Source: Actinomycetota bacterium (GTDB lineage Bacteria > Actinomycetota > Geothermincolia > Fen-727 > JAQUKT01). Taken from it: DNA of 64,000 nt. Numbering within the stretch: the first letter of the stretch is position 1; each line of letters opens with the position of its first letter. Below the pieces are notes generated by a model. It did no database searches. It was not told where the DNA came from and was given only the letters and a program-made list of their open reading frames with translations. The DNA lies in contig JAQUKT010000001.1 of assembly GCA_028718945.1 (NCBI GenBank), forward strand, positions 11,997 through 75,996, written 5' to 3'. Shown piece by piece: positions 12,274 to 38,554 of this stretch. The position numbers and the translations under genes were made by a program.

Positions 12274-12390
12274 GTTGACAAGAAGAGTAATGCCGAGAAT
12301 TCCATAGAACTCGGGATCGAGCCTTATTATGAGTAAGAATGCTTCCTTAAAAGCCCTTAATATACTTTCCAGTTTTTCCTACCGCAACGC

Positions 12391-13265: not shown

Positions 13266-13575
13266 CCCTCCTCCTTCAAATGACAAAAGAAAATCTACAT
13301 TTTCTCAATGAAACTGACCACAATATAGAGCGCTCTTTCGGAGGTGGTCTTCTATCAAAAGTGCAGTAATTTCTTTGATTCAAACATAAAAAACCCGCCG
13401 TGCAAAAAGGCAGGTTTATCATCTTACCTCTCCTTTCCAAACACGGGAGGCACAACCGTTTCCAGTTGCACCCCATCGCCCTCGCGCCATTGCAGATGCT
13501 TTAGGCGCTTCAGGTCGGAGATATTTTCGTTAAACTAACAAAAACATGGAAAAATGTCAACAAACAAATCAAAGC

Positions 13576-14130: not shown

Positions 14131-14162
14131 ATTATCGGGGGTGACCCCATTATCGGGGGCGC
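14127..14162. repeat. 18-nt tandem duplication (CCCCATTATCGGGGGYGM x2) at the element end, overlapping the 3' end of the downstream gene
   Basis: Direct tandem repeat seen in the sequence. It produces the artefactual DPIIGGDPIIGG ORF on the plus strand. Confidence 0.6.
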
Positions 14163-15238
14163 ACTGGCTGGGGGGGTGCCTGAACCCTTATCGGCCAGGG
14201 GCGAAAAGAAATCAGAAAGGCTACGGCAGCCGCTATCGAAAAAACTATTAGCCAGTCCTTGGTGGGAAATTCATGCACAAAAGTCTCGAGCGCATTCTTG
14301 AAATTCTCAATTGTTGGAATGTTGATAATCCTTATGGCCGGGAACCAGACGGTAAGCATATACATAAGTATCCTGCCCGCACTAACGAAAATCATGGAAA
14401 GACCAAGAGCAATCCCTCCAAGGACAAAATTGAAGTGTCTTCCAGAACCAAGAACCACCGCAACGCCAACCACTATGCCAAGTGCCCAGCCGGTAATACC
14501 ATATTCTTTATGTGTCCACCATGCTATGCCCGCATAAGCACCGGAGCAAAGCGCGCCAGCGAGGGCTCCGTACAAAACCGATTTCAAATAAGACGGCTCG
14601 GGCGTTATTTCACCATCATACTCATCGGGCATCTGCATTGATACTATACCCTCACCGGGGATTCTCCTCTTTTTTCTTGGCGCATGCTTTCGTCTTGCTT
14701 CAACCCCCTCAAAAGGCTGTGTTGTGGGGAAACCTTCGGCGGTCAATACCGCCTTCTCTCTCATATCAACAGGAACCGCTCTTCTCTTTTCGCTTTCCGG
14801 AATAACCGGGGGGGCCTTCATAGGTGTTTCCCCAACTATTGCCGCTTGAGGGTGCTCCTTTGCAGACCTCCTTGCTCTTCTCCTGCCACCTTCAAGGTCG
14901 CCCCAGAACATGTCGGCTTCGAGGCTTTTTTCGGGAACACTTTCCATGGGTTTGGTTTCTTTCACAACAGGAACAGTTCCAGAAGGCTTCTCTATTGGCT
15001 TTCTTAAAGCCTTTTTCTCGACCTTCTTTTTCGCCTCTTCTTTGACCCCCGATGCATTTTCCTTCTTAGGCTTTTCCCTCACAACCATCCGGGCGGCAAT
15101 TTTTTCAAGTTCAAGCCTGTGGCATTCGGGGCAGTAGTTGGTGTCACGTGTTTCTATCACGCACTTCCTGCAGAAGTTCGCACCGCACGCCAAGCACGTA
15201 AGTTCAGCCTCGTTACCTGGATGCCATTTGCATTCCAA
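14150..15238 (-). CDS. Zinc-ribbon membrane protein (N-terminal CxxC zinc ribbon, Pro/Lys/Glu-rich linker, C-terminal 4-TM domain)
   Basis: N-terminal CKWHPG...CLACGANFCRKC...CPEC cysteine array, a low-complexity charged middle, and a hydrophobic C-terminal ~150 aa. Last gene of the sigma/repeat-protein block. Confidence 0.55.
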   Translation of the reverse strand: MECKWHPGNEAELTCLACGANFCRKCVIETRDTNYCPECHRLELEKIAARMVVREKPKKENASGVKEEAKKKVEKKALRKPIEKPSGTVPVVKETKPMESVPEKSLEADMFWGDLEGGRRRARRSAKEHPQAAIVGETPMKAPPVIPESEKRRAVPVDMREKAVLTAEGFPTTQPFEGVEARRKHAPRKKRRIPGEGIVSMQMPDEYDGEITPEPSYLKSVLYGALAGALCSGAYAGIAWWTHKEYGITGWALGIVVGVAVVLGSGRHFNFVLGGIALGLSMIFVSAGRILMYMLTVWFPAIRIINIPTIENFKNALETFVHEFPTKDWLIVFSIAAAVAFLISFRPWPIRVQAPPQPVRPR

Positions 15239-15473
15239 TTTCTATCCCCTTCACGAAAAGGCGCTATTCGATAGATGCTATCTATTATAAGACATTTCCA
15301 ATTCGCAAACCGTTGAAACGACACAGATACATACTCTCACCTCACCGCCGGAGAGCATGTTCTCCCACCACTTCTATCGAGTAAACTGCAAACTCGACCA
15401 AAATTGGGCTTTGAAGAATTTCACGGCAACAGAAATCTATACCGGATAAGAAAGACTTTGCGCCAAGGAATCA

Positions 15474-15502
15474 AAATGTGTTATTGCAAGACCTGACCCC
15501 AT
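15474..15502 (+). repeat. Solo copy of 28-nt repeat family (T variant)
   Basis: AAAATGTGTTATTGCAAGACCTGACCCCA, 4 nt after the stop codon of the 15507-18023 gene. Confidence 0.7.
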
Positions 15503-15506
15503 ACGC

Positions 15507-18023
15507 TCAAGGGTAAGGCTCGACAGCCGCACTTTTGAAAACACCGTAGCAGTCCGCCCGGTCAATTGGGAATTGTTTTTCGATCAAGGTTTTGAATGTA
15601 ACCCACCTCAACGCGCTTGCCGGATTGCTACCGGATGTATTCATGTTGAGCTGATCTACAAGCTTATGTAGGGCACCCAAACCGGGTTCGGTTCCAAGGG
15701 CAATCATCATCTGGCGAGAAGCTTCAAGTGCCTCGGGCGTTTTCATAGCATCTGCGATATTCTGCATTGCAGTGGGGTTATTCGCAAGCAGGTTAACAAT
15801 TGACATCACAAAGTTTCTTCCGTTAGTCGATTCAAGTATCGATGCAGTAGCCGCAGGATCCCCCTTGCCCATCAAATCACCTATGAAATCGGGGCAAGAG
15901 TTAACAATATTTGCGACTAATTGCGGGTCAATTCCGCCCTCCGCAACCGGTTTTACCAGGTCATATAACATTCCCTTGGGCCCGCCGGGTTCATAGCTCT
16001 TCTTGGTTGCCCTATTCATCGCTTCGTTCAGGGCACCAGCATCGAGATTTGCAATCAGGTTTGTGATAAACGTCTGGTTGTTGTTGATAATCGAGACGAC
16101 AAGGTTTGTGCTTATGCCAAAATCCGGGTCCATTAGTGCCTTCGTAAAATACTTCGTTGCCTCAGGCGATAAAGCCATCTGAGCCGGGTCCATGTTCTTG
16201 ATTACGCCAGAAATAAGCGCTTCTCCAGCATCCGTATTTATGGCGTTGCATAGAACAACGGGATTAAGGTTTGAAAGAAGCCCATCGATGAATGCTCCAT
16301 TGTTATTCACAATATATGCAACAGCCTTAGGGTCAAGAGCCTTCATCATCTTATCGGTGTTTTTCGGGTCTTGGGCGTTTACCACATTTGCTATGACCTT
16401 CGGATTGAGGAATGAGATGAGATTCGTGACAAACTCAATGTTGTTGTTAATGGCAACGGCAGTCCCGCTTGGGTCGAGTTTACCCATGAGTCTTGTAATG
16501 AATGTCTCATTGTTGTTAACCACACCCGCAATTACCTGAGGATTAAGCTTCGAAACCACATTTATCATGAAACTCGGGTCGCCATTCATACTTGAAGCCA
16601 GAGCATCGGCATCCAGTTTCCCTATCAACTTCGTGATAAACGCTCCATTGGCATTCACAACTCCAGCGATAACCGCCGGGTCGAGCCTTGCTAACATTCT
16701 GCTTGTCCACTCCCAGTTCTTGGCGCTCATCTCGTTTATTTTGTCTATATCGAGATACTTGAGAACACCCTTCAAGAATCCTGGATTTGCGTTTATTGCA
16801 ACAGCAGTTCCAGCCATACTCATGTTTCCCATCAAGCCCGACAGGAAAGCGCCATTTGCATTTACCGCATTTGCAATAGGCGTCGGATCAAGTTTTGCAA
16901 GGACCTGACACATCATCTCGGTATTGCTTGAAACTGCCCGTATGAGATCCGTGGAAAGATAACCGACAAGCGAACTTATGAATGGAGCCGAATTGTTCAA
17001 TATGCCCGCTATAACCCCGGGATCCAAATAACCTATCAACTTGGTCGTAAAATCGCTCGTTGTTCCTGTATTTTTCGCAAGTCCTGCAGGGTCCATCTTC
17101 GATATCAATCTCGTGAGAAATGCCTGATTGCTCCCGATTGTAGCAATGAACTCCGGACTTATGTTCATTGCGACATCGTATGTAAATTTATTTGTTTCAG
17201 GAGTTGACATCGAGAGCTGGTCGGGGTCCATATAGGACACAAGTTTCGTCAAAAACGCCTGATTTCCGTTTACCACTCCTGCAATAACTGACGGGTCGAG
17301 ATAACCCATAAGGTCCCGAATCATGTTCACATTACTTGCCATTCCAGCGCTCATACCTTCAGCGTCGATTTTTCCAAGGAGTTCAGTTATCCATGCTCCG
17401 TTGTTGTTGACAACCCCCGCTATTGTATCCGGACTCAGATATCCAACAAGCTCACTTGTAAATGTCGGGTCTGCATTCATGGCCTCAGCGGTAGTCGCGG
17501 GATCCGTATATCGAACAACCTCAACGAGGAAATCTCCATTTGCGTTTATCGCATCCGCGATAACTTTTGCGTTGAGATTTCCCACCAGAGAAGCGATGAA
17601 AGGCCCTGCCTTGTTTACGATTTCCGCGGTGATTTTCGGGTCCCCATTAGCCATCATTTCGTTTATGAACTTCTCGTTTTTATTTACAGCCTCAGCAATT
17701 ACCTTTCCATCGATGTAGCCCAGTAAATCCGAAATCCATTCGGGATTCTCGTTTACCGCGATTGCAGTTCCCTTGGGGTCTGAATACTTCATTACCTCAT
17801 TTATGAACTCAGGGTTATCATTTATCGCCTCGGCAACCGCCTTGACATCAAGAGAGCGAAGCATTGCAGCGGTTCCCTTGGGATTGCTGCTCATCTTTCC
17901 AATCATCTTACCAAGAGGGCTTCGGGTTGGAATGAAACCAACAGCGCCAACTGCCGCAAGTGCAACAACTACAATTAAGACCACCGCATTTACCAATGTT
18001 TGAATGCCCTTGTTATAGATCAT
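15507..18023 (-). CDS. Membrane-anchored 23-residue-repeat protein, paralog 1 (about 30 repeats, consensus LDPxVIAxAVNxNxxFIxxLIxx)
   Basis: N-terminal TM helix, conserved PLGKMIGKM segment, then periodic DPxVIAxxVNxN repeats across 838 aa. Low-complexity antisense ORFs occur throughout. Confidence 0.7.
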   Translation of the reverse strand: MIYNKGIQTLVNAVVLIVVVALAAVGAVGFIPTRSPLGKMIGKMSSNPKGTAAMLRSLDVKAVAEAINDNPEFINEVMKYSDPKGTAIAVNENPEWISDLLGYIDGKVIAEAVNKNEKFINEMMANGDPKITAEIVNKAGPFIASLVGNLNAKVIADAINANGDFLVEVVRYTDPATTAEAMNADPTFTSELVGYLSPDTIAGVVNNNGAWITELLGKIDAEGMSAGMASNVNMIRDLMGYLDPSVIAGVVNGNQAFLTKLVSYMDPDQLSMSTPETNKFTYDVAMNISPEFIATIGSNQAFLTRLISKMDPAGLAKNTGTTSDFTTKLIGYLDPGVIAGILNNSAPFISSLVGYLSTDLIRAVSSNTEMMCQVLAKLDPTPIANAVNANGAFLSGLMGNMSMAGTAVAINANPGFLKGVLKYLDIDKINEMSAKNWEWTSRMLARLDPAVIAGVVNANGAFITKLIGKLDADALASSMNGDPSFMINVVSKLNPQVIAGVVNNNETFITRLMGKLDPSGTAVAINNNIEFVTNLISFLNPKVIANVVNAQDPKNTDKMMKALDPKAVAYIVNNNGAFIDGLLSNLNPVVLCNAINTDAGEALISGVIKNMDPAQMALSPEATKYFTKALMDPDFGISTNLVVSIINNNQTFITNLIANLDAGALNEAMNRATKKSYEPGGPKGMLYDLVKPVAEGGIDPQLVANIVNSCPDFIGDLMGKGDPAATASILESTNGRNFVMSIVNLLANNPTAMQNIADAMKTPEALEASRQMMIALGTEPGLGALHKLVDQLNMNTSGSNPASALRWVTFKTLIEKQFPIDRADCYGVFKSAAVEPYP

Positions 18024-18064
18024 CTTTTAAGCTCCTGTGAACTTGTCAGTTCAATCCCTCCAAA

Positions 18065-20527
18065 TCAAAACGGACCCACTGGCTGACCAGCTGTCGTGCA
18101 AAGTCGAGCATCAACAATCTGGGTCCACCCCTCAATGTTAATCAAGCCCAAAAGCTGCAGCTGGCCAAAACTCCATATCTTCGTTATTGCATTGTCCTCG
18201 TGATGCCCGGTAGGTCCATGTATTACTTCCACTATGGTTTGTGGTGATATTCCGCCCGCGTTTTTGTTCAATAGCCCACTGATGAAGTTCCCGCTTTGTT
18301 CAAGTATGGGCGCTGTTCCATCCGGGTCCATACTTGCCATCAATGAACTTATGAAGTTTGTGATATCGGGTGCATCTTCAAGAATAGTCATGAGAATATT
18401 TGGGTCTATCCCTTGAGGAGGCGGAGCGAGCATCGCTTCCATCATTTCAGGATGCGCCCCCATCGCTTGAGCAAGAACATCGGTATCAAGATAACCAAGA
18501 AGTTTCTGAATCATCGGGATAACAGCCGGATTGTTGTTGAGGGTATCGGTGATGTCCGCGGTGTTTGAAAGCTCTGACATCTTAGCGATGAAATCTCCAT
18601 TTAGATTTATTGCGTTGGCTATGACAGCGGGATTCATATGACTCACCAAGTTTGAAATCCAGGTTGCGTTCGTATTCAATAGGTCTGCTATCATGTACGG
18701 GTCAAGGGCACCAGGTTGCAAGAGGCGCTCAACAAAATCGGTGTCGCTCATCTCAATTGAATTCGGATCTATACTTGCTATTACGCCCGTCAGAAATGCC
18801 TGATTGTTGTTTATTGCATAGGTTACTGTTTCTGGCTTTATCTCATGTAACAGACTGGTAATGAACTCCTTGTTCTCATTGATCATCTTTGCGGTTCCCT
18901 TTGGGTCCATTTTGTTCATCAGGTTCGTTATGAATGTCTGATTAGCGTTAACAACGCTTGCAATTACCGCCGGATCAAGATATTTGAGCATATCGCTCAT
19001 CATTTGCGGGTTTGCATTCACCGCGTTGGCAATAACAGTAGTGTTCAGGTTCTTGACCAGATTTGTAATGAATGTTCCATTGGAGTTTACAACCCCGGCT
19101 ATTACCGATGGATAAAGATACTTTGTTATATCAGATGCTGATCCAGTACTCGAATTCACCACAGCGGCAATGACAGCAGGGTCGAGCTTACTCACAAGAG
19201 CAGTCAAGAAATTACCCGACTGGTTGACGCTTTTTGCAGTTGCATCGACGGACATGAGCGGCATCATCTCTCCAATCCAGTTAGTATTAGAATTTACTAT
19301 TCCCGCTATGACCTTTGGGTCAAGCGCCGCAAGAGTTCCAGCCATCAAGTTACTCGTCGCATTCATCGCATTTGCTATCGCAACCGGATTGAGACGCGCT
19401 ATGACATCGGTCAAGAATTTCTCATTCTTCAAAACGGTTACCATCATGTCGGGGTCAGCGTTCCCGCTTGCGGCAACTATGAAATCGATGTTGTTGTTCA
19501 AAACGCTCGCAATAACTGTCGGGTCGAGTGAGTTTATCAAGCCAACCGCAAATCCCCCGATTTGATTCACGAGCCCTCCTATTGAAGCAGGAGAAAGCTT
19601 TTCCATCAACTTCGATGTTGAGGAAGTGTTGTTTACGACGGCGCTCAAAAGCTCAGGGGAAATATTTTCAAGCACGCCGCTAACGGTATTCGCGCTTCTA
19701 TTTACTATTCCCGCTATCACAACAGGGTCGAGTTTCTTTATCAAATTGATGCTCATCTGGGGGTCCTGGCTTGTTGCTCTTGCGATAATCTCTGGATTCA
19801 GTTTCCCCAATAGTTCAGTTATGAAGGGACCATTCTGGTTGACGATATCGGCAATCACATCGAGATTAATGTAGTTTATTACCTCTGAACTTGCGCTGGT
19901 ATTGGAGTTCATCAGGTTCGCTAAAACATCCGTTGATATAAGACCTACCGTCTCGCTGAGGAAAGCCTCGTTTCCGTTTACTGCGTCAGCAATTACCTTC
20001 GGGTCTATGTATGAGGTGACCTTATTCATGAACTCCGTATTGCCCACACCGCTTGTCGCTAATTTTTTCGCGTCAAGCTCACCAATCAGTTCTGTAATGA
20101 ACTTCCCGTTGGCATTTACCGCTCCGGCAATTACCTTCGGGTTCAAGTAATTGAGAAGCTCAACGACGAAATCCGTATTCGCATCCATGCCCTCACTCAT
20201 TGCGGAGGGGTCCATATAACTTATGAGCTCTGTAATCCACTTGCCATTCTTGTTTATAGCATCAGCAATAACTTTCGGGTCGAGAGCGGAAAGGGTTTTC
20301 GACATCATCGTCGGGTCCGCATTCATCGCGTTGGCAAGAACCTTCGGGTCAAGCTGCGAAAGTAAGCCGGATATCAAACCTTTCTGGCTTGCCATCTTTC
20401 CCATCAGCACGCTCAGAGGTGGATTCGAACTGGGTATCATCATGGTCACGCCCAAAATGAGCGATAGCAATAATGCCATAATTATTACTATATTTATAAG
20501 CCCTTGAACTCCTCTTGAAAGTAACAT
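18065..20527 (-). CDS. Membrane-anchored 23-residue-repeat protein, paralog 2
   Basis: 820 aa. Same architecture as paralog 1 (TM helix, PLSVLMGKM segment, repeats of exact 23-residue period). Confidence 0.7.
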   Translation of the reverse strand: MLLSRGVQGLINIVIIMALLLSLILGVTMMIPSSNPPLSVLMGKMASQKGLISGLLSQLDPKVLANAMNADPTMMSKTLSALDPKVIADAINKNGKWITELISYMDPSAMSEGMDANTDFVVELLNYLNPKVIAGAVNANGKFITELIGELDAKKLATSGVGNTEFMNKVTSYIDPKVIADAVNGNEAFLSETVGLISTDVLANLMNSNTSASSEVINYINLDVIADIVNQNGPFITELLGKLNPEIIARATSQDPQMSINLIKKLDPVVIAGIVNRSANTVSGVLENISPELLSAVVNNTSSTSKLMEKLSPASIGGLVNQIGGFAVGLINSLDPTVIASVLNNNIDFIVAASGNADPDMMVTVLKNEKFLTDVIARLNPVAIANAMNATSNLMAGTLAALDPKVIAGIVNSNTNWIGEMMPLMSVDATAKSVNQSGNFLTALVSKLDPAVIAAVVNSSTGSASDITKYLYPSVIAGVVNSNGTFITNLVKNLNTTVIANAVNANPQMMSDMLKYLDPAVIASVVNANQTFITNLMNKMDPKGTAKMINENKEFITSLLHEIKPETVTYAINNNQAFLTGVIASIDPNSIEMSDTDFVERLLQPGALDPYMIADLLNTNATWISNLVSHMNPAVIANAINLNGDFIAKMSELSNTADITDTLNNNPAVIPMIQKLLGYLDTDVLAQAMGAHPEMMEAMLAPPPQGIDPNILMTILEDAPDITNFISSLMASMDPDGTAPILEQSGNFISGLLNKNAGGISPQTIVEVIHGPTGHHEDNAITKIWSFGQLQLLGLINIEGWTQIVDARLCTTAGQPVGPF

Positions 20528-20581
20528 CCGAGTTTCCTCCGGTTATCCCTTCCTCCTGTCTTCCTCCTGTTAAAGTTTCCT

Positions 20582-23350
20582 CTAAAAACCTGGTGGCTTA
20601 GCCGTCGAAGAGTACTTCGTCCACAGATTCTCATCCATAGTAACCCACCCAATAAAAGTGTGAGCTTTTGCCGTCGTCGTAAGGCGCAAATTCTTCATTA
20701 GGGTTGGGTCATCCTCGAGCGTCGAGCACAGTACAATCGGGTCAAGTTTGGCAAGCAATTCGGGCAGAAGCTGCTGGTTCGAGTTTATTGCATCGGCAAT
20801 TACCCGCGGATCGAGATTCGCAAGCAACCGACCTGTCATCTCGGGATGCTTCCCCATCGCCTCAGCAAGAACAGCCGGGTCGAGGTAACCCGGACTTATA
20901 AGCGTTTTAATCAAATCCATGGTATTAGGTTGGTTAATAAGATCAGCCGTAATGCTCGGGTCACTGGTTCCCATGAACTCGGCAATGAAACTCCCGTTCG
21001 CGTTTATCGCATTTGCTACCACCTGAAGTGCGCTTGGATTAGCATCGAGCGCGGCAATTATCCTCCCCACAAAATCATTCGACCCCTGCTCGAGATGAAG
21101 TTCATGCTGCACATCCACCATTGCCTGTACATCGGTGCTTGCTATCATCTCACGAATAAACCCGGGATTTTCGTTTACAGCAGATGCAATCCTTTCGGGG
21201 TCGAGCCCTGAAATCAAATTCGAAAGGAATGCTTCGTTGTTGTTTACTGCCTCACCTATGACCTCGGCATCGAGGTTGTTCATCAAAGCAGTTGTGAAAG
21301 CGGTTGCTTCCTCACTTGCCCTGGTAAGAACAGCCGGGTCAAGGTATTTGATGACATTCTTCAAGAAAACCTTGTTCGCGTTTACCGCGGACGCTATCGC
21401 TGCCGGCGATAAGTATGGAAGCATCTTTGAGGTTGAATCGGGATTCGCGTTCATTGCGTTTGCAATTACCTGAGCGTTGAGATATTTCAAAAGATTTTTT
21501 ATGAACGTCGCGTTCGAGTTTATTATTGCCGCTGTAGTTGATGGGTCTCCTTTGCTCATTACTTTCGAAATGAATGGTCCATTCGAGTTTATGACACTTG
21601 CAAGCATGGCTGGATTCAGTTTCCCAACAAGAGCGGTTATGAAGGGTCCATTCTTGTTTACTATTTTCGCGGTAACTTGGGGGTCGCTCTTCGACATCAT
21701 CTTCTTCAAGAACTCGCCTGAATCGTTTACCACGCCAGCAATAACACTCGAGTCGAGATTGTCGAGAAGTTCCTTTGTCGAGTTTGGATTCGCACTCATT
21801 GCATCCGCAATCACCTTCGGATTCAGTTTTGGCAATAGGGAATTTATAAACGCGACATTCCGGTTGAGAATTGTTGCCGTTGCGGCAGGGTCCCCGGCAC
21901 TCATAACTTTTATGAGGAATTCCTGATTGTTGACTATCGATGCGACAAGGTCTGGCGATATTCCGCCAACAACCGCATAAACGAAATCCTCCTGTTGTTT
22001 GTCCATTGGCTTGGTCAGCTCAGCCGGGTCGAGATTCCTCACAAGTTCAGTCATGAACGCACCGTTTGCATTGAGCGCGCCGGCAATCGCAGCCGGGTTG
22101 AGCGCGCCAATTACCTTGAGCATGAATCCCTGGTTGTTTATGATATCCGCCATCACTGTCGGGTCTGCCGAGTTCACTACCTGAACGATAGTACTCACAT
22201 TTCCATTTATTATCCCTGCTATCACATTAACATTGAGATGAGAAACAAGCCTTGCTATCCAGTCTCCATTCGCATTCACCGCGTTCGCGATAGGAGTCGG
22301 ATCTGAGCTTCGCATCATTGCCATCAGGAAAGCTTCGTTCGAATTCACTACATTCGCTATCACGGTTGGATCAAGCCTTCCCAATAGAGCGCCAATGAAT
22401 GGACCATTGTTATTGACAATATATGCTGTTATCTTGGGGTCTGAATACTGCATCATCGCCTGAAGGAATGGACCGTTTTCATTCACAACATCAGCAACAA
22501 CAACAGGCGATATGTAGGAGATTAGATCAGTAATGAATTTGCCGTTCTCGTTTACTATATAGGCAATCACCTGTGGGTCGAGATATTTCATCAGGTCATT
22601 GCTCATTTCGGGATTTGCTGTTATTATCTCTGCAAGCATGGCTGGGTCGAGATTCCTGATAATATCTGCTATGAGTTTTCCATTTTTGTTTATCGGATAA
22701 GCCAAAGCTTTCGGCTCAAGCAGAGAAATAAGCTTCGTGCTCATCTCTGGATTCGCACCCATCGCATCAGCAATAACCTTTGCAGGAAGTGCGGAAATCA
22801 GTTCAGAAATAAATTCGGGGTTTTCATTCAGTGCCTTCGCCGTTGCCTTCGGATCTCCGCTTGTCATAATTCCCTCGAGGAGATATCTGTGATTCGCGAT
22901 TTCTCCGATCATTTTTCCCAAAGGAGTTTTATCTACCGGAACAATCGCGAATCCAGCAAATAGAATGGTGAAAAGAAGTCCTATTATCACCACAACATTC
23001 ACAAGTGTCTGAAGGTGTGGACCAAGTAGAAAGCCCCCTCCTGGTTGCGGCGCCCGTGCCTTTGCCCTGACCTGAGTAATTTCCGGCCTCGGAGCAACTT
23101 TGGGTGCAATCTGAACTTTTGCTTCGGCGCCAAGAGCGAGTACTTTCTGCCTGTACTCCTGCCTTGCGCGTGCCTGCATCGAAGGATGTTCGACAGAACT
23201 TATAGTTAGCGCTGTCTTGAGGATGAACTCTACCTCCGCTCTATCCTTTTGCTTAGCAAGGAGACTCTCGAGCTTTGTTCTATCCTTCGAAACTGCATCA
23301 AGAAGCTTATCAATCAGGTTGGCTGAACTATTGTCATCCAAGCTAACCAC
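20582..23350 (-). CDS. 23-residue-repeat protein, paralog 3, with ~130-aa cytoplasmic N-terminal domain and single TM (anti-sigma-factor-like architecture)
   Basis: 922 aa. Helical charged N-terminal domain, then TM (LVNVVVIIGLLFTILFAGFAIV), then PLGKMIGEI and the repeat array. Immediately downstream of the ECF sigma gene. Confidence 0.65.
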   Translation of the reverse strand: MVSLDDNSSANLIDKLLDAVSKDRTKLESLLAKQKDRAEVEFILKTALTISSVEHPSMQARARQEYRQKVLALGAEAKVQIAPKVAPRPEITQVRAKARAPQPGGGFLLGPHLQTLVNVVVIIGLLFTILFAGFAIVPVDKTPLGKMIGEIANHRYLLEGIMTSGDPKATAKALNENPEFISELISALPAKVIADAMGANPEMSTKLISLLEPKALAYPINKNGKLIADIIRNLDPAMLAEIITANPEMSNDLMKYLDPQVIAYIVNENGKFITDLISYISPVVVADVVNENGPFLQAMMQYSDPKITAYIVNNNGPFIGALLGRLDPTVIANVVNSNEAFLMAMMRSSDPTPIANAVNANGDWIARLVSHLNVNVIAGIINGNVSTIVQVVNSADPTVMADIINNQGFMLKVIGALNPAAIAGALNANGAFMTELVRNLDPAELTKPMDKQQEDFVYAVVGGISPDLVASIVNNQEFLIKVMSAGDPAATATILNRNVAFINSLLPKLNPKVIADAMSANPNSTKELLDNLDSSVIAGVVNDSGEFLKKMMSKSDPQVTAKIVNKNGPFITALVGKLNPAMLASVINSNGPFISKVMSKGDPSTTAAIINSNATFIKNLLKYLNAQVIANAMNANPDSTSKMLPYLSPAAIASAVNANKVFLKNVIKYLDPAVLTRASEEATAFTTALMNNLDAEVIGEAVNNNEAFLSNLISGLDPERIASAVNENPGFIREMIASTDVQAMVDVQHELHLEQGSNDFVGRIIAALDANPSALQVVANAINANGSFIAEFMGTSDPSITADLINQPNTMDLIKTLISPGYLDPAVLAEAMGKHPEMTGRLLANLDPRVIADAINSNQQLLPELLAKLDPIVLCSTLEDDPTLMKNLRLTTTAKAHTFIGWVTMDENLWTKYSSTAKPPGF

Positions 23351-23485
23351 TTCCTACCTCTCCACAAGCAAACCCAAAAAATTATCGCTCGAATAATAAT
23401 AACGATTTTGACTCTCAAAGGATACTGGTTTTCCTCAAAAAAGCGTGAAATTCACATGGGTAAATGGAACCGGCACGAAGTGAAA

Positions 23486-24052
23486 TCAGAGGAAACTTGA
23501 AGGACTCGACTGGGAAAGTATTCTGTTTAGGGCAAAAAGACCTCTTTTCTGAGTGGATTTGACTGCACCAACTGATACACCCATAATCTCTGCAATCTGA
23601 GCGTTAGAAAGATTATCGATAAACTTGAGAACTATTACTTCGCGCTGGTTGTGAGTGAGTCTTTGAAGGGCAAGATAGAGTCTTTCACTATCGAGGTCTG
23701 CCATTGCAGTTTCCATTGGATTGCCTTTCGCAGCAGGAGTAGGCGACTGCTCGTCAATAGGAACATTCTCCCTTCTTGACTCACTTCTGAAAAAATCAAC
23801 AGCGAGATTGTGCGCAATTCTGAAAAGCCATGACGAAAATGATACATCACGAGTCTCGTAGTATTGAATATTCTCGAACGCTTTCAAGAAGGTCTGTCCT
23901 GTAAGGTCCTGTGCGTCATTCTGATTTCCAACCTTGTAATAAATATATCTGAATATCTGATCAACATATTCATCGTAAAGCTCCCCAAATGCCTCCGGGT
24001 CGCGTTCTTTTGCTCTCTTCACAAGGTTTTGAATAGCGCTCTCTCTGGACAT
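23486..24052 (-). CDS. ECF-type RNA polymerase sigma-70 family factor
   Basis: 188 aa. Region 2 (DLTGQTFLKAFENI...WLFRIAHNLAVDFFR) and region 4 HTH (NAQIAEIMGVSVGAVKSTQKRG). Confidence 0.85.
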   Translation of the reverse strand: MSRESAIQNLVKRAKERDPEAFGELYDEYVDQIFRYIYYKVGNQNDAQDLTGQTFLKAFENIQYYETRDVSFSSWLFRIAHNLAVDFFRSESRRENVPIDEQSPTPAAKGNPMETAMADLDSERLYLALQRLTHNQREVIVLKFIDNLSNAQIAEIMGVSVGAVKSTQKRGLFALNRILSQSSPSSFL

Positions 24053-24317
24053 ACATGCTCCGTTCTACGAAAAAACTTATGCCCCTCCTGTCAGTCTATT
24101 TAACTTAAGTAAAAAAGCGTTAACCGAAGTATACTATACTTAAAAAAATTTTCAAATTTTTTTGTCAACACAAATGAATGGCACTCCCAATAAGCTGCAA
24201 ATAGTTCGCAACGGATGATACTCAAAAGTGTCAAATTTGAATATCACCCGACAAGAGCAGCTTTTACCTTAGAAAGGAGCTTGTTCCTTCCTCACGAAAC
24301 GAAGCCCATTGCTTTCC

Positions 24318-27300
24318 TCACCAGAGAGGAAACCCTATCACGTCATGCCCACCAGTCCAGCCATAGAAATCAAAATACATCGGTCGTTCGACGATTATTC
24401 CTTTATTATCTTCCCCGAGCGCAACCACTTTGGCGCCAGCATCCTTGCCCCAGCCAATAGAACCGTTCACATCAACCGTCACTCTTGCGTGACCGGGCAC
24501 AGCTAATTTCTGCTCCTTGTTCTCCCCACCGGTCAGCATGTAGGTTATTCTTACCTCGGCTTCCTTGTCACCCGGGTTCTGGATACTCAACCATTCCTGG
24601 AATCCTTGCATAGTTGTTCCCTCTGCAAAGTACCACTGAGAAGCAGTTGAATTTGCACCTATTACATCATGCCCCCCGGTTATGCCAACATAATCGAAGT
24701 AAATCGGGCGCTCGGCAATTATCGGCTGACTCGAGGTAATGCGCGCGGAAACATCATGCTCCCTTTCAACTGCACCATGAACATCTACTGTAACCCTGGA
24801 AGTCCCCAATACACTCAAGCTCTGAGCCTTGGTTTCACCAGTTTCAAGCATGTATGTAATCTTCACATCAGCCACATAGGTTCCAGGATTCAACAGGCAA
24901 ATCCATTCATCGAATCCCGAACGAGTGGTGCCCTCGGCAAAATACCAGGTCTCTGAAGGCGAAGTCGCGCCCATGCAGTCGTGTCCGCCAGTCCACATAT
25001 TTTTGTAGTTGAAATACATCGGTCGCTCGGCAACAATGCCTACATCCGAGGTAACCTTCGCGGCGCAATCAACTCCCGGTCCAAGGAACTGCTTGGCACT
25101 GATTGTTCTCCTCGACTTCGCAGGAACTTTAACGCCCTGAGCTCTTGTTCCTCCTCCGGTAAGCATATACTTGATTTCAACCGCCGCTTCATGTTCAGAA
25201 GGATTTTGGAGGCATATCCATTCCTCAAACTCGTCTCTGGTATTACCCTCAGCGAAATACCATTCTTTCGATGCACCAACAGCCCCCATGACATCGTGTC
25301 CGCCTGTCCATACTCCGTTATAGTTGAAATACATGGGTCGCTCGGCAACTATTTGTTTGTCAGAATCCACCCTTGCAGAAACATCCTTCTCTTTGCCAAC
25401 CACATCCTCCACGCGCACGGTCAGCCTGCTTTTAGCCGAGACCTCGAGCTCATGAGTCTGGTTGGGACCCTCCGAGAGCATGTAAGTGATGGTCACGCTT
25501 GCAGCAGTATCATTGGGGTTCATCAAGCAAATAAATTCCTGGAACCCCTGCCTCGTGGTCCCTTCTGCGAAGTAGAAAGTCTTGGGAAGAGTAACCGAAA
25601 ATTGGATTCCGTTCGATGTTCCAACTGGAGTTGTAATTGTCACATTACCCGTTTTTGCCCCCATAGGAACTTTTGCCCTTACGCTTGAATCAGACCATGA
25701 TTCCACATCAATGGCATCAACATTAGCGAACCTAACCTTGCTCGTGCCCTGCTCATCACCAAAGTTCTTCCCGCTCACAGTAACAGAGATTCCAGCAGGA
25801 CCGTTCAAAGGTGAAACCGATGAAATGTATGGACCTGCGGTGAACTGAACAGAATTGCTTTGCCCACTCGGCGTTGTAACTATTACTCCCCCGCTTGTCA
25901 CAGCCGCTGGAACTCTTGTCTCTATCTTCGTTTTCGACCAGGATTTTGCCTTTCCGGCATCCACACCCGCAAACGTTACCTTGCTCGAGCCCTGTGTCTC
26001 GCCGAAAGTGAATCCATTTATTGTGACAATCGTGGTTCCCGGTATCCCGCTCGATGGAGAAATAGATGTTATCTTTGGCAGAACCTTGAAGGATTTTTGG
26101 TTGCTTTCAACATCGTTGACAGTAACAATGACCGAGCCACTGGTTGCTTTTGCCGGAACACTTACAGTTATCTTAGTTGATGTCCAGCCTTCCACCTGAG
26201 CAGGTTCCCCATTGAATTTCACCGTGTTCGAACCCTTTGAAGCGCCAAACCCGGTTCCATTGATTGTTACGGAATCGCCAACTCTTCCTTCGGATGAACT
26301 CAACCAGTCGATAACCGGTGTAACGTTGAAGGGAATCAAATTGCTTTCTCCGTAAAGAGTCTGAACCTTCAATTGACCGCTTGTTGCATTCTCGGGAACA
26401 TTCACCACAATCCTGTTGTAGCCCCAGGTTGATGCGGTTCCAGAATCCACATTGTTGAAATATACCTTCCCATTTGCGCCCTGCACTTCCCCGAATCCAG
26501 AGCCATCTATGGTGACTGAATCCCCCACTTTTGCAGTTGTCGTTGAAGTTCCCGAAATCCAGGGGGTTATGCTCAAAACCGGGTCTTGCGTGCTTGCACT
26601 CGAGTTTCTCAAAACCCGAACAGGTCCAGTCCATGGCTGGAAAACCGCGGGGTCATCAGGAATCTTGAACTTGATATTTGTGTTATTCCATGAGACCATA
26701 AAGGCTTCCGGAACCATCTCGAGGCTCACATTTCCATCTTCATCCATCTTCTGCATTTTCACGCAGTTGTTAGGGTCATAAGGAAGTGGACTTGTCCCGA
26801 AATTCCCGCCATTTATCTCGATTTCATCACCGGTCTTGCCCGAGTCGGGTGAGAGTTTCTCAATCTTCGGGATGACATTGACATTCAATGGTGGTGCGCT
26901 CTCCTTTCCACCCGCTGTAACCGTCACTGGAACACCAATTCCTGGCTCTATATCAGGGGGAAGAGTGAACTTGATTTCCGTACGCGTCCAGGACGTGAAG
27001 CTCCCATCTGGAATCTGCCCGCCATTTACCTTTACATTGTTCGTATCGGTGCTTCTATTCCCTGAACCAGGGTCATTACCAAAACCGGTTCCGGTAATTG
27101 TAACCGCTGTTCCGTATGACATTTGCGTTGGGCTCACGTTAGTAATATTCGGAAGAACTGTAAAGGTAACACCATTTGAACTCCCCCCGTCATGAACAAC
27201 ATGAACATTTCCAGTAATGGCATTGTTCGGAACAACCGCTTTTATCTCGGTGCCGGTCCATGTATTAATTGATGCCTCCGTTTCACCACCAAAATATACA

Positions 27301-30300
27301 TGACCGTTCACGCTTGGCTGGCCCGCGCCGAAACTCGAGCCATTTATGGTTACCTCGGTGCCCGTTACCCCATTGCCTGGAACAAGTGGAGGAGTTATTA
27401 CCGGAGCGGCAAGGCTCTGGCTACAAACCTGAATTCTCCCAAAACTGCCGCATGAATATGCCTTTATCCTGTCAGTATCCCAGATGCTCGAGATGCCCAT
27501 AAGAGACCTGTTGACGCCCGTAGCGCTTTCAATTTCACCCCATGTTCCGCCTCCATTTGAAGTATAAAGCGCGCAGGCGGGCTCAGTTACAGCCGGGCTG
27601 GCTCCAACAATGAGGCCATTTCTTGTATCAGAATGCCCCGGGGCGCCAAAGGAAACTCCAAAAAGTTCATCGCTTACAGGACCTTCCTGAAAAACCCAGT
27701 TGTCTCCACCATCATCCGAGTACCAGATTGAGCCTCCTTCTCCAACTGCCCAGACATCGCTTTTACCGCCCATTGAGACATCATTGATTTTCACAGAGCC
27801 AGCGGGGGGATTTGCAGGAGTCTGCCAGGTTGCTCCTCCATCATCCGTCCACCTCACGCTTTCCGTGCTTCCCGCGGTTCCCCCAACCGCAACTCCACAT
27901 TCTTCGTCGAAGAAATCAACCGCTCTTAAATTCGCGGTTGGATTGCTCTCCTGTTCTGTCCATGTATCCCCTGAATCCGCGGAAATCCATATATGCCCGT
28001 TATCACCAACAGCCCATGCGTGAGTTGAATCTATGAAATCAACAGAGCTCAAATTATTTGAAACAGGCGGACTTGTTGCAGGTGACCATGTTTGACCGCC
28101 ATTGGAAGTTCTTCTGACAGTTGCGTTATCTCCAACCGCAATGCCTCGATAGACACCACCATCAAGATACATTGACACATCATTGAGATTCTTGTCTGTA
28201 ACGCTATCAGAGGGCATCCAGGTTGCCCCCGCGTCGGTCGTATAAAGAACAACTCCCTTTTCCCCGCAGGCAATTCCATTGTTTGCATCCGCAAATGACA
28301 TTCCATTGAGGTTATTCGCGGGGCCCTGAAGGAAGTTCCAGTTTGCGCCCTTATTCGTGCTACCAATTATCGTTCCATAATCCCCGGAAGAAAAGGCCCT
28401 TGAGAATGCTGATTCAAACCAGGAAGCGCGAAGATCGTTCCTGTTGAAACTCGACCCTGCGTCCCAGTTTGCTCCACCATCGCTCGTATAGTAAATATTA
28501 CCATCCGAGCCAACCGTTACTCCCTCGAAATTTGGTATAGCTCCATTGTAATCAATCGAGATATCCCTCAGGTTAACCGTTCCGGGAACAGCTCCCTGAG
28601 GATTCCAGGTTACACCGTCCCAGCATAGAACGGTTCCGGAATCTCCAGCCGCCCAGACATTATTCGAGTCATAGGCATCAATGCCATAAAGAGGAGGAAT
28701 CCCAGCAGCAAGCTCCTGATTGAAGGTTATGCCGCCATTTGTTGTGTGACAGATGATTCCTCTGGAAGAATCCTCGAAGCCAACCTCGAAGCCAACTGCG
28801 TAGAAATTGGAGGAATCAACAAAATCGGAAGCGAAAAGAGCGGAGGGAGATGGTATCTCGGAAATTGTATTCCACGTATTACCATCTGTGCTCCTTATTA
28901 TTGTCCTTACTTCTCCCACAGCCCAGCACTGATAGTTCACTCCATCATGAAGGGCAGAAACCGCGTTCAAACGATTGTTTGTCTGTGAGGTTTGCTCCGC
29001 CCAGTTATCGCCGTTATTGGTGCCCCCATATACCTTCCCACCATCCCCAACAACCCACGCGTAGTTATTCGTGGAATCTCCAAACTCAACTCCTCTCAAG
29101 TTATTGGCAGTTGAAGGAGGAGCCGCAGGGTCAGCCCAGTTCTGACCTCCGTTCGTGGAACGAATTACCCGTCCGTTTTCACCGCAGGCAATTCCTTGAG
29201 TTAATGAAACAATGTCAACACCAAAAAGGTCATCCGTATGCCCGCTCGAGGAGGCATTCCAGTTTGCTCCATTATTGTTTGTGAACCTTACGACGCCATT
29301 TGAACCAACTGTAGAGCCCGTATCATTTGAACCATTGTTACAAAGTGAAATTCCATAGAGGTCTTCAGTTGTCCCCGAAGTTTGCGTTTGAAACGCTACG
29401 TTATAGTGAAGTATGAATCCGGAGGAACCACAGAACCAGCCCTCGATAGCAGTAGGAAATGATATGTCATAAATTGTGTTCGTTGCTTGAAGGACGCTCA
29501 ATGTGTTCCATGTCGAGCCATCGGAAGTACTTATGACCAGCCGCCCGTCACCAACCGCGAATCCCGCAGGTCCTGAATACATCGAGATTCCCCTCAATTC
29601 AAGAGATGTCCCGCTCGTTTGTGGACCAACAGTTCCATTAAGATAGCGATAGAGCATCCCAGCCTGACCGCAAATCCATCCATTGCTCGAGTCGGTGAAA
29701 TCAAGAGCGAGGAAATCGTTTGTCGTTTTTTGAACCCCGGAATAAAGCGCCCATGAAGAACCCCCACTGTTTGTCCAAGCCATGAGCCTGCTCTCACCAG
29801 CAATGACTCCAGCACTCGCGTCCGTGAAATCAATCCCGTACAGGTTATTCGATGTCGGACTCGTTATTACTGACCATGTGCCATCCCTTCCTACGATGGT
29901 TCCATCTTGACCGCAGGCAAAAGCATTGTTCGAGGATACTGCGGAGACCGATTCGAGATTTTTCGTGGTGCTGGAATTCTCTTTTGTGAAAAGACCATTT
30001 CTCGCAAGATAAACAATTCCAGAATTTCCAACCACCCATCCGTATTTAGAAGCAGTATCAAAATCAATTCCGTTCAAGTTGTCCGTTCCCTCCAAGGATG
30101 AGATTTTCGTCCATCCTGGACCCGTTGAATCGTACTTCCACATCGTCCTGTTCATACCGGAAGCAAAAGCAAGTGAAGCACTTGAGAACGATATCCCCGT
30201 AAGGTCCCTTGTTCCCGAATCCATACTGACTGGAGAGCCAAATGATCCACCCGTGATGGGAACCCTGTAGCCCTCGGTTCCGCTTCCGCCAACCGCAAAG

Positions 30301-34096: not shown

Positions 34097-34186
34097 GTTA
34101 CGAAAATAATAGGTGACAAAACACCAATTGACACTCGCTTCAGTGGCTGCTAAAATTTTGCTTGTATTGCTTCTAAGGGAAGTTAA

Positions 34187-35401: not shown

Positions 35402-35476
35402 AAGAGCATAAGTTTGACTTCAATTGAAACGCAAGAATAGTTAGCAACTTTTTCGACTCTAACGAGAGGAGAGACT

Positions 35477-36409: not shown

Positions 36410-36412
36410 CAT

Positions 36413-37312: not shown

Positions 37313-37448
37313 TTCCTCTTTAAGAATGTCACATAGACAACATTGATAATAATTAACGGATAATAATCTTGACTAATCACTACCCTAATGCTATGCTTGT
37401 ATTGCTTGTTGTAATGTTCATTTGAAGTCAGGAAAGGAGGAGAATTCA

Positions 37449-37628: not shown

Positions 37629-37630
37629 AG

Positions 37631-38143: not shown

Positions 38144-38150
38144 CTAACTG

Positions 38151-38549: not shown

Positions 38550-38554
38550 ATGCA

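What the first reader, a model, noticed from the sequence alone, without database searches (positions are those of the whole stretch)
14150..24052. ECF sigma factor heading a tandem triplet of paralogous, membrane-anchored giant repeat proteins plus a zinc-ribbon membrane protein
An ECF sigma gene is followed on the same strand by three paralogous genes (922, 820 and 838 aa). Each encodes a protein with a single N-terminal TM helix followed by about 30 copies of a strict 23-residue repeat, and a zinc-ribbon/4-TM protein follows them. The intergenic gaps are 135, 54, 41 and 268 nt, so this looks like one transcription unit. ECF sigma factors normally pair with one modest anti-sigma protein. A sigma followed by about 7.7 kb of paralogous repeat-protein genes is not an architecture I can assign to a described system. 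It could be an envelope-stress sensing system, a surface-layer system or a receptor system.
Basis: partly seen in the sequence, partly recalled or inferred. Interest (0 to 1): 0.8.

Follow-up and report, generated by a model that had tools for sequence, protein, structure and literature searches.

The report
BldN-like sigma with solenoid anti-sigma triplet
An uncultured actinobacterium has a Streptomyces-BldN-like sigma factor whose probable anti-sigma partner is the first of three huge membrane-anchored proteins built from a previously undescribed 23-residue helical repeat, so the odd gene cluster is a new variant of a known regulatory module.

Summary
On the minus strand lie an ECF sigma gene, three paralogs (922, 820 and 838 aa) and a zinc-ribbon membrane protein. 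Each paralog has one TM helix followed by about 26-30 units of a 23-residue repeat.

The repeat matches no Pfam or NCBIfam family. AlphaFold predicts a helix-turn-helix solenoid. The family is rare and was found only in uncultured Actinomycetota.

The cluster is not one undefined unit:
- The sigma's best solved relative is Streptomyces BldN.
- A motif invariant in 8/8 loci, CGTATC-N16-CGTTTA, lies in the sigma-A spacer. The BldN motif is CGTAAC-N16-CGTTGA.
- Only paralog A has a roughly 110-aa cytoplasmic N-terminal extension. This extension is homologous (hhalign 97.7%, E 1.7e-12) to the N-termini of the single-pass proteins that follow the nearest out-group sigmas.
- A sister clade has the triplet but neither the sigma nor the extension.

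The best reading is a BldN/RsbN-type sigma/anti-sigma pair. The anti-sigma is one of three co-transcribed, length-matched envelope solenoid proteins. What the solenoids do is inferred only. I rate it a new variant of a known kind, of moderate interest.

The parts
24128..24155 (-). Sigma-70-type promoter-like site TTGAAA-16-TATACT upstream of the sigma gene. It is followed by a partly conserved leader (GTTAAC...TTAAC).
   Evidence: This is the best-scoring site of the scan (10/12). The TATACT-like box and downstream leader motifs recur in relatives. Function was not tested.
23486..24052 (-). ECF sigma factor, BldN-like (188 aa).
   Evidence: Pfam Sigma70_r2 and r4_2. NCBIfam TIGR02952 (BldN family) scores 176.3 bits, below the 206.45 cut-off. 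The best PDB relative is 6DXO_A, S. venezuelae BldN, E 1.2e-29. Orthologs are 65-78% identical.
23401..23425 (-). ECF-type promoter motif aGTATC-N16-CGTTat, 50 nt upstream of the A start codon.
   Evidence: It is the only exact match in the 64-kb window. GTATC and CGTT are invariant in 8/8 independent loci while the flanks are unconserved. It lies upstream of A in every clade-1 locus that includes the spacer. The published BldN motif is CGTAAC-N16-CGTTGA (PMC2375139).
20582..23350 (-). Paralog A (922 aa), the putative anti-sigma factor. Its layout:
- N-terminal helical domain, aa 1-75 (23126-23350)
- A/P/K/R-rich linker
- TM, about aa 114-137 (22940-23011)
- about 30 units of the 23-aa repeat, aa 166-892 (20675-22855)
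- short non-repeat C-terminus
   Evidence: The N-domain is homologous to the N-termini of the partners of out-group sigmas.
18065..20527 (-). Paralog B (820 aa). It has a 7-residue N-tail, a TM at about aa 8-31, about 28-30 repeat units (aa 60-756) and a roughly 65-aa non-repeat C-terminus.
   Evidence: The AF2 model has a TM helix at 6-28 followed by about 60 short helices, pLDDT 65.9.
15507..18023 (-). Paralog C (838 aa). It has a 7-residue N-tail, a TM at about aa 8-31, at least 26 repeat units (aa 59-744) and a roughly 90-aa non-repeat C-terminus.
14150..15238 (-). Zn-ribbon membrane protein (362 aa). It has an N-terminal 8-9 Cys/His B-box-like module, a charged K/R/E/P linker (aa 46-215) and a C-terminal block of 3-5 hydrophobic segments. 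It is a conserved neighbour of unknown role.
   Evidence: Pfam hits are all sub-threshold: DUF7564, B-box. It is conserved downstream of the triplet in clade 1. A distant relative sits near a single repeat protein without a sigma in L021 and L022.
24318..32774 (-). Giant secreted protein (2818 aa) with Ycf48-like BNR, 6 IPT/TIG and C-terminal DUF5719 repeats. It is a recurrent neighbour of the triplet and a possible partner.
   Evidence: Pfam. DUF5719-type proteins lie inside or next to the triplet locus in both clades.

Best explanation
This is a BldN/RsbN-type ECF sigma/anti-sigma module from an uncultured, deep-branching actinobacterium. It has been grafted onto a three-paralog set of membrane-anchored envelope proteins.

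Proposed mechanism:
1. The sigma gene is transcribed from a housekeeping-type promoter.
2. The sigma then directs RNA polymerase to the conserved CGTATC-N16-CGTTTA promoter in the 135-nt spacer. This promoter drives A, B and C.
3. A is a single-pass type II membrane protein. Its roughly 75-residue N-terminal helical domain faces the cytoplasm and sequesters the sigma, giving negative feedback as RsbN does for BldN.
4. The roughly 790-830-residue C-terminal parts of A, B and C lie outside the membrane. They are helix-turn-helix solenoids of about 30 units of 23 residues each.
5. B and C lack the sigma-binding domain. They probably associate with A through the strongly conserved TM and juxtamembrane segment and through their length-matched solenoids.
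6. The complex would then act as an envelope scaffold or stalk, and its state (assembly, integrity or ligand) would be reported to the sigma through A.

What is shown: gene order, repeat anatomy, homologies, promoter conservation, and the phyletic pattern.
What is inferred: sigma-A binding, topology, A-B-C association, and the nature of the signal.
For: Sigma identity: it is an ECF sigma whose best solved relative is BldN, and its best NCBIfam hit is the BldN family.

Promoter:
- GTATC-N16-CGTT is invariant in 8/8 loci within otherwise unalignable spacers, 41-64 nt before the A start.
- There is one match in the window against 0.18 expected.
- It is present before A in all clade-1 loci that include the spacer.
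- It differs from the BldN motif CGTAAC-N16-CGTTGA by one base per hexamer and has the same spacer length (PMC2375139).
- In Streptomyces, rsbN also has its own BldN-dependent promoter (PMC4255298, PMC6101532).

Anti-sigma role of A:
- A occupies the slot directly after the sigma gene.
- A has 113 residues before the TM anchor. RsbN has a 117-aa cytoplasmic region, a TM at 118-139 and a minimal binding region of 1-91 (PMC6101532).
- The extension occurs only in the paralog next to the sigma: 109-118 aa in 7 loci, against 6-10 aa in all the other paralogs except one whose longer N-terminus comes from the ORF-start choice.
- The extension is absent from all paralogs in the sigma-less clade.
- It is homologous to the N-termini of the single-pass proteins encoded right after the 43-51%-identical out-group sigmas. 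Those proteins carry different ectodomains (DUF5667, PepSY-like). hhalign gives Prob 97.7%, E 1.7e-12.
- The sigma is much better conserved (65-77%) than A, B or C (40-56%), as reported for BldN versus RsbN (PMC4255298).

Solenoid.

Co-assembly hints:
- The Q-x2-[VI]-N...[IL]P-x-[KR]-x-P-x-G-x2-G-K segment is conserved across all paralogs and both clades.
- The three paralogs of a locus match in length within about 4% in most loci, while the two clades differ by about 18%.
- A, B and C are 1:1:1 orthologs across clade 1.
Against: - No binding or transcription data exist.
- The N-domain has no detectable sequence similarity to RsbN or to any solved anti-sigma domain.
- Its AF2 model is low confidence (pLDDT 54.5) and matches no fold.
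- The out-group partners are themselves only presumed anti-sigmas.
- The sigma scores below the BldN equivalog cut-off.
- The sigma's own promoter looks housekeeping-type, so the usual ECF autoregulation is not evident.
- Conserved K/R residues just after the TM of B and C make the N-in/C-out topology less than certain.
- The sigma-less clade shows that the solenoids have a job independent of sigma signalling.
- The solenoid model is only moderately confident (pLDDT 65.9, pTM 0.46).
Confidence: 0.6

Rival explanations
1. The primary function of the triplet is structural. A, B and C would form a membrane-anchored stalk or scaffold of defined length that holds or organises the giant DUF5719/TIG surface proteins, in an S-layer-like or fibre-like envelope structure. 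The sigma link would be a clade-specific regulatory add-on with no sensing role for the solenoids. This overlaps with the best explanation and differs only in denying a sensing role.
For: - The triplet occurs without a sigma or the N-extension in a second clade.
- DUF5719-type proteins lie within or beside the locus in both clades.
- Lengths are matched within a locus and shift together between clades.
- BldN's known targets are also surface structural proteins, the chaplins and rodlins (PMC6101532).
Against: - There is no evidence of physical association with DUF5719 proteins.
- No ECF-type motif was found upstream of the giant genes or the Zn-ribbon gene.
- It does not explain why one subunit acquired a domain homologous to that of sigma partners.
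Confidence: 0.3
2. The Zn-ribbon membrane protein (14150-15238) is the real anti-sigma factor, of a zinc-binding type. A, B and C would be only regulon members.
For: It has a cytoplasmic Cys/His-rich N-terminus followed by membrane segments, and it is conserved downstream in clade 1.
Against: - It has no H-x3-C-x2-C ZAS motif, and its Pfam hits are B-box or DUF7564, all sub-threshold.
- It is separated from the sigma by 7.7 kb.
- In four relatives a terminator hairpin follows C, and in three of them, where the Zn-ribbon gene follows directly, a TATAAT-like box precedes it. In several loci a roughly 2100-aa gene is inserted between C and the Zn-ribbon gene.
- A distant relative occurs without any sigma in L021 and L022.
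- The A N-domain, not this protein, is homologous to the partners of related sigmas.
Confidence: 0.07
3. The solenoids face the cytoplasm (N-out topology for B and C). They would act as membrane-tethered HEAT/ARM-like scaffolds, for example for the neighbouring Tad pilus machinery.
For: - Conserved K/R residues follow the TM of B and C, and their N-tails are very short.
- Alpha-solenoids are mostly cytoplasmic (my own knowledge).
- A Tad locus is adjacent in the window and in several relatives.
Against: - A's 113-residue N-extension ends in a K/R-rich linker that should stay cytoplasmic. This places A's homologous TM and solenoid outside.
- The R/K before the Q-x2-[VI]-N anchor is conserved in all paralogs, like a signal-anchor n-region.
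- No Tad genes were seen in the fetched flanks of clade 2.
Confidence: 0.08

Closest known systems
BldN-RsbN sigma/anti-sigma pair of Streptomyces (PDB 6DXO; PMC6101532)
   Same: - The sigma is the closest solved relative.
- The partner gene is immediately downstream.
- The partner has a cytoplasmic N-region of about 110-117 aa, one TM and a large extracytoplasmic part.
- The partner gene has its own sigma-type promoter, and the motif is nearly identical (CGTATC-N16-CGTTTA versus CGTAAC-N16-CGTTGA).
- The partner diverges much faster than the sigma.
- The regulon output is cell-surface proteins.
   Different: - The sigma is below the BldN equivalog cut-off.
- There is no sequence similarity to RsbN.
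- The ectodomain is a roughly 790-aa repeat solenoid instead of 272 aa.
- Two additional paralogs without the sigma-binding domain are co-transcribed.
- The host is an uncultured, non-Streptomyces lineage (Geothermincolia-type MAGs).
DUF5667- or FecR-type single-pass proteins encoded after related ECF sigmas (loci L026, L028, L030-L032)
   Same: The N-terminal roughly 65-residue domain is homologous. The position after a 43-51%-identical sigma is the same. L028 also has a GTAAC-N16-CGTT motif before the partner gene.
   Different: The ectodomains are unrelated (DUF5667, FecR, PepSY-like). These proteins are 295-616 aa long and have no paralogous companions.
HEAT/ARM alpha-solenoids and the ARM-like repeats of FliG and MgtE_N
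   Different: - The period is 23 residues with two helices of about 10 residues. By my recollection, HEAT and ARM repeats are about 37-47 and about 42 residues.
- No HEAT, ARM or MgtE_N model reaches its threshold.
- TM-scores are at most 0.26.
- The predicted location is extracytoplasmic.
SigI-RsgI systems of Clostridium thermocellum (my own knowledge, not tested here)
   Same: They are membrane anti-sigma factors with large, modular extracellular domains that read the cell exterior.
   Different: The RsgI paralogs each pair with their own sigma. Here there is one sigma, one anti-sigma-like paralog and two paralogs without a sigma-binding domain. The domains are unrelated.

Membership tests
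ECF (group IV) sigma factors | [quoted passage not shown] | tested here: met
   Sigma70_r2 (E 3.7e-17) and Sigma70_r4_2 (E 1.8e-14), 188 aa. TIGR02937 scores 97 bits, above its 42.9 cut-off.
BldN family (NCBIfam TIGR02952, equivalog) | Score at or above the curated cut-off of 206.45 bits | tested here: not met
   The score is 176.3 bits. It is the best NCBIfam hit but below the cut-off. The best PDB hit is BldN 6DXO_A, E 1.2e-29. I therefore call it 'BldN-like', not a BldN ortholog.
BldN/RsbN-type module | The anti-sigma gene is directly downstream and encodes a single-pass protein with a cytoplasmic N-region of about 100 aa | tested here: met
   A starts 135 nt after the sigma gene. It has 113 aa before the TM anchor and one TM. 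RsbN has 117 aa and a TM at 118-139 (PMC6101532).
BldN/RsbN-type module | The partner gene has its own sigma-dependent promoter resembling CGTAAC-N16-CGTTGA | tested here: met
   CGTATC-N16-CGTTTA is conserved in 8/8 loci. This shows sequence only. Sigma dependence was not tested.
BldN/RsbN-type module | RsbN-type anti-sigma fold (three helices with a long alpha-3 clamped between sigma-2 and sigma-4) | tested here: inconclusive
   AF2 of A(1-100) predicts helices 5-22, 24-33, 37-52 and 56-79, but pLDDT is 54.5. Foldseek finds no significant match. There is no sequence match to any PDB chain.
BldN/RsbN-type module | Physical binding and inhibition of the sigma by the partner | not testable with these tools
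   This needs two-hybrid, pull-down or multimer modelling.
Class I anti-sigma domain (ASD/ZAS) | Match to zf-HC2/RsrA-type models, or an H-x3-C-x2-C motif | tested here: not met
   No Pfam hit in A or in its N-domain alignment. The A-type N-domain contains no Cys or His motif.
HEAT / ARM / PBS-lyase HEAT-like repeats | Significant match to the repeat models, and a period of about 30-47 residues | tested here: not met
   None of these families appears at E<=1. The period is 23. Only the generic fold class is shared.
Leucine-rich repeats (20-29-residue period with an Asn ladder) | A beta-strand/turn LxxLxLxxN unit and an LRR model match | tested here: not met
   No LRR Pfam hit. The AF2 secondary structure is all-helical.
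Type IV pilin / Flp-like prepilins (considered because of the adjacent Tad locus and peptidase A24) | Gly (or Ala) at -1 of a class III signal peptide, with a short leader | tested here: not met
   The residue before the hydrophobic segment is G in some paralogs but S or P in others, and A has a 113-aa leader.

The most novel reading that the evidence does not exclude
A, B and C form a heteromeric, envelope-spanning solenoid structure of defined length. One subunit (A) also acts as the anti-sigma factor. The cell would then read the assembly or integrity of its own surface structure directly through a structural subunit. This would be an assembly checkpoint comparable in logic to FlgM/sigma-28, built from a new repeat fold and restricted to deep-branching Actinomycetota.
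Probability: 0.25. Interest if true: 0.75.

Novelty: new variant of a known kind. Interest (0 to 1): 0.55.

Why it matters
- It extends the BldN/RsbN regulatory logic, known from sporulating actinomycetes, to uncultured basal Actinomycetota. It also suggests that surface-protein control by this sigma lineage is ancient.
- It defines an unannotated N-terminal domain that recurs in the membrane partners of this sigma lineage. This domain is a candidate for a new anti-sigma domain family.
- It defines a new 23-residue helical repeat that builds roughly 800-residue membrane-anchored proteins, which come in conserved triplets.
- If the triplet is a structural envelope element with a built-in anti-sigma subunit, it would be a compact example of feedback from structure to transcription.
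- It would also give a handle on the unknown cell envelope of these lineages.

Tried and rejected
- **Family searches.** Pfam, NCBIfam and PADLOC found no family for A, B or C.
- **First homolog search.** The word-indexed search returned only 11 hits because repeat words saturated the candidate list. The exhaustive HMM search gave 231 hits.
- **Distant hits are unrelated.** P0074, P0114 and P0148 carry unrelated 23-residue 'DP' repeats of beta-like character in large BNR or lectin proteins. They are not family members.
- **First genome scan.** A scan with the 10-sequence alignment failed for lack of a conserved stretch. It worked with closer sequences.
- **Anti-sigma domain searches.** PDB and Pfam searches with the A N-domain found nothing. 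The 5.8-billion-protein search with its profile found only 3 fragments. Foldseek of its low-confidence model found nothing.
- **Single comparison with the L026 partner.** It was weak (E 0.0035). It became convincing only with a four-sequence out-group profile. The L028 partner showed no similarity on its own.
- **Prepilin idea.** Rejected, because G at -1 is not conserved.
- **LRR idea.** Rejected, because the model is all-helical.
- **Recent DNA repeat expansion.** Rejected, because TRF finds no 69-nt repeat.
- **Orthology between clades.** The three paralogs of the two clades could not be matched. One ancestral triplication versus two independent ones remains open.
- **Other ECF-type promoters.** I found none in the window, only intragenic or wrong-strand matches.
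- **Literature.** No paper mentions DUF5719. No paper on these lineages describes this family.
Full report
**Observation**

| Gene | Coordinates | Length |
|---|---|---|
| ECF sigma | 23486-24052 | 188 aa |
| Paralog A | 20582-23350 | 922 aa |
| Paralog B | 18065-20527 | 820 aa |
| Paralog C | 15507-18023 | 838 aa |
| Cys/His-rich membrane protein | 14150-15238 | 362 aa |

The gaps are 135, 54, 41 and 268 nt.

The 23-residue period is clear. Self-identity at lags 23, 46, 69, 92 and 115 is 0.13-0.22, against a mean of 0.07 over lags 1-119. A repeat HMM finds 30 hits each in A and B (a few in B are overlapping or marginal) and 26 in C. Spacing is almost always exactly 23, and the consensus is DPAVIANAVNANPEFITELLSY. 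There is also a 46-residue super-period, in which well-conserved units alternate with looser ones. No 69-nt repeat survives at the DNA level, so the arrays are old and are maintained at the protein level.

The paralogs are 29-33% identical to each other.

A carries 113 residues before its membrane anchor, whereas B and C carry 7.

**Fold and family of the repeat proteins**

No Pfam, NCBIfam or PADLOC model matches the repeat proteins.

AlphaFold2 of B, using a 10-sequence alignment, gives an N-terminal TM helix (6-28). About 60 short helices follow, two helices of about 10 residues per repeat. The last roughly 70 residues are low-confidence. Mean pLDDT is 65.9 and pTM is 0.46.

The proteins are therefore alpha-solenoids with an unusually short unit. 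They are not members of the HEAT, ARM or LRR families.

**Distribution**

- An exhaustive HMM search of 1.84 billion representative proteins finds 231 hits at E<=0.001 and 42 at E<=1e-30. Most are fragments.
- The most distant hits are unrelated 23-residue repeats in other large proteins.
- A scan of one genome per species finds 15 loci. The 14 with an assignable title are Actinomycetota MAGs, including Candidatus Geothermincola and Candidatus Solincola.
- The window's sigma is identical to a protein from an NCBI 'Actinomycetota bacterium' MAG. Orthologs are labelled Geothermincolia and Ca. Anoxymicrobium.

**Gene neighbourhoods: two main arrangements**

*Clade 1.* This includes the window. 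At least 9 independent loci retain the upstream region. The gene order is:
1. sigma;
2. A, with the N-extension;
3. B;
4. C;
5. in some loci, a roughly 2100-aa TIG/DUF5719 protein;
6. the Zn-ribbon protein;
7. a tungstate/molybdate ABC operon.

A, B and C are clean 1:1:1 orthologs across these loci. A Tad-pilus cluster is usually divergent upstream.

*Clade 2.* There are at least 5 loci. A subtilase-DUF5719 protein is followed by three paralogs of about 1000 aa. A profile search finds no sigma ORF in these loci, and none of the three paralogs has an N-extension.

A Solincola-type locus appears to carry a single, possibly frameshifted copy followed by a distant Zn-ribbon relative.

The sigma linkage is therefore clade-specific. 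The conserved core is the triplet plus DUF5719-type secreted proteins.

**The sigma and its promoter**

The sigma's best NCBIfam hit is the BldN family, at 176 bits against a cut-off of 206. Its best solved relative is S. venezuelae BldN from the RsbN-BldN complex, 6DXO_A, E 1.2e-29.

The sigma-A spacers of eight independent loci are 110-271 nt long and otherwise unalignable. Within them, GTATC-N16-CGTT is invariant, with consensus CGTATC-N16-CGTTTA. It ends 41-64 nt before the A start codon.

In the window this site is 23401-23425(-). It is the only exact match in 64 kb, against 0.18 expected. It precedes A in every clade-1 locus that contains the spacer.

The published BldN recognition motif is CGTAAC-N16-CGTTGA (PMC2375139). 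The two motifs share the spacer length and differ by one base in each hexamer.

An out-group sigma locus (L028) has GTAAC-N16-CGTT between the sigma gene and its partner gene.

The sigma gene itself is preceded by the best sigma-70-type site in the region, TTGAAA-16-TATACT at 24155-24128(-). Its -10 box and leader motifs recur in relatives.

Four relatives have a GCGGGAAC...GTTCCCGC hairpin with a T-run after C. In three of them, where the Zn-ribbon gene follows C directly, a TATAAT-like box precedes it. I did not find the hairpin in the window.

The cluster is thus best read as two, and probably three, transcription units rather than one.

**Paralog A as the anti-sigma factor**

In Streptomyces, RsbN is encoded next to bldN and has its own BldN-dependent promoter. 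It has a 117-residue cytoplasmic N-region (minimal binding region 1-91, three helices), a TM at 118-139 and an extracytoplasmic domain. It diverges much faster than BldN (PMC6101532, PMC4255298).

A matches this description at each point that sequence analysis can check:
- **Position.** It lies directly after the sigma gene.
- **Promoter.** It has its own sigma-type promoter.
- **N-terminal layout.** A conserved roughly 75-residue helical region is followed by an A/P/K/R-rich linker and one TM.
- **Divergence.** The sigma is 65-77% identical across loci, while A is 40-56%.

The extension co-occurs strictly with the sigma.

The decisive comparison used the nearest out-group sigmas, which are 43-51% identical. 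Each is followed immediately by a single-pass protein with a different ectodomain: DUF5667, FecR+DUF5667, or PepSY-like. The N-termini of four of these proteins were aligned against the A extension. They are homologous and collinear from residue 1 (hhalign Prob 97.7%, E 1.7e-12, 63 columns). The L028 partner was not included, because it showed no similarity on its own.

A shared N-terminal module attached to varied ectodomains is the usual signature of cognate anti-sigma factors.

Limits of this inference:
- The module has no detectable similarity to RsbN or to any solved anti-sigma domain.
- Its AF2 model is low confidence.
- I could not model the complex.

**What the solenoids do (inference only)**

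A's long, positively charged N-region should stay in the cytoplasm, which places its solenoid outside. B and C share the same TM and juxtamembrane motif, Q-x2-[VI]-N...[IL]P-x-[KR]-x-P-x-G-x2-G-K. This motif is conserved across all paralogs and both clades, which is unusual for a simple anchor. I therefore assign B and C the same topology. The conserved K/R after the TM is a caveat.

Measured from the anchor to the C-terminus, lengths are 779-852 aa in clade 1 and 958-1007 aa in clade 2. The three paralogs of a locus agree within about 4% in most loci.

Matched lengths, a conserved intramembrane motif and the persistence of exactly three paralogs all suggest co-assembly into a structure of defined length.

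DUF5719/TIG/BNR giants are constant neighbours and are plausible partners. However, no ECF-type motif precedes them, and nothing is published on DUF5719.

Whether the two clades inherited one triplication or triplicated independently is unresolved.

**Verdict**

The cluster is a BldN/RsbN-like sigma/anti-sigma module in which the anti-sigma is one of three paralogous, length-matched envelope solenoid proteins of a new repeat family. It is a new variant of a known kind.

Two things are worth follow-up: the candidate anti-sigma domain family, and the possibility that a structural subunit doubles as the sensor.

Noticed in passing
window 13414-13532 (-), with genes 7315-13122 (-): A Moco (molybdenum/tungsten cofactor) riboswitch (67 bits) lies upstream of a periplasmic-binding protein, permease and ATPase operon. 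Two MoeA genes follow, one of them fused to a PBP-like domain. The same operon follows the triplet locus in most clade-1 relatives. It looks independently regulated.
   Followed up: partly
window 33317-39382 (+): A Tad/Flp-type pilus cluster: a ParA/TadZ-like ATPase, a TadA-like T2SSE, two T2SSF proteins, a peptidase A24 and a TadE/G-like protein fused to an NlpC/P60 hydrolase. It is divergent from the sigma operon in several relatives. Whether the link is functional or mere synteny is unknown.
   Followed up: partly
window 24318-32774 (-): A 2818-aa secreted protein with at least 8 Ycf48-like BNR units, a Sortilin/Vps10-like region, 6 IPT/TIG domains and 3-4 C-terminal DUF5719 repeats. DUF5719-type proteins accompany the triplet in both clades. 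In clade 2 the DUF5719 domain is fused to an S8 protease. No paper in the library mentions DUF5719.
   Followed up: partly
window 24053-24127 (-), and the equivalent leaders in L004, L010, L011, L008, L013: The leader between the sigma-70-like -10 box and the sigma start codon carries conserved elements: GTTAAC-N6-7-TTAAC, then GCACTGA. In some loci a GGG...CCC stem followed by a T-run is also present. This could be an operator for a repressor (BldD represses bldN in Streptomyces) or an attenuator. There is no Rfam match.
   Followed up: partly
L004, L008, L010, L011, just after gene C: A conserved terminator-like hairpin, GCGGGAAC-N4-6-GTTCCCGC plus a T-run, follows C. In L004 and L008 (and in L013, which lacks the hairpin) a TATAAT-like box precedes the Zn-ribbon gene. 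The hairpin was not detected in the window's 268-nt gap.
   Followed up: partly
L007, L017, L019, L020 (clade 2), downstream of the triplet: The sigma-less triplets are followed by a DrrA-like ABC ATPase and, where gene calls are held (L007), an ABC-2 permease and a 7TM-HisKA histidine kinase. The kinase may be the alternative regulator in that clade.
   Followed up: no
P0074, P0114, P0148 (distant hits of the profile search): These are large proteins (two of them with BNR or Laminin_G_3 domains) carrying long arrays of a different 23-residue 'DP' repeat, for example ITPDLAQSLVTAFDPTLTVGSVS. They are probably beta-rich fibre-like repeats. The shared period and DP motif gave spurious profile matches.
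   Followed up: partly
C-termini of A, B and C and their orthologs (for example window 15507-15750, 18065-18260, 20582-20720): The non-repeat C-terminal 40-90 residues are rich in aromatic and beta-type residues. They often end in a Pro-rich tail with a terminal aromatic residue (PPGF, GPF, PYP, GPW, PHW). AF2 confidence is low here. This could be an assembly or wall-binding element.
   Followed up: no
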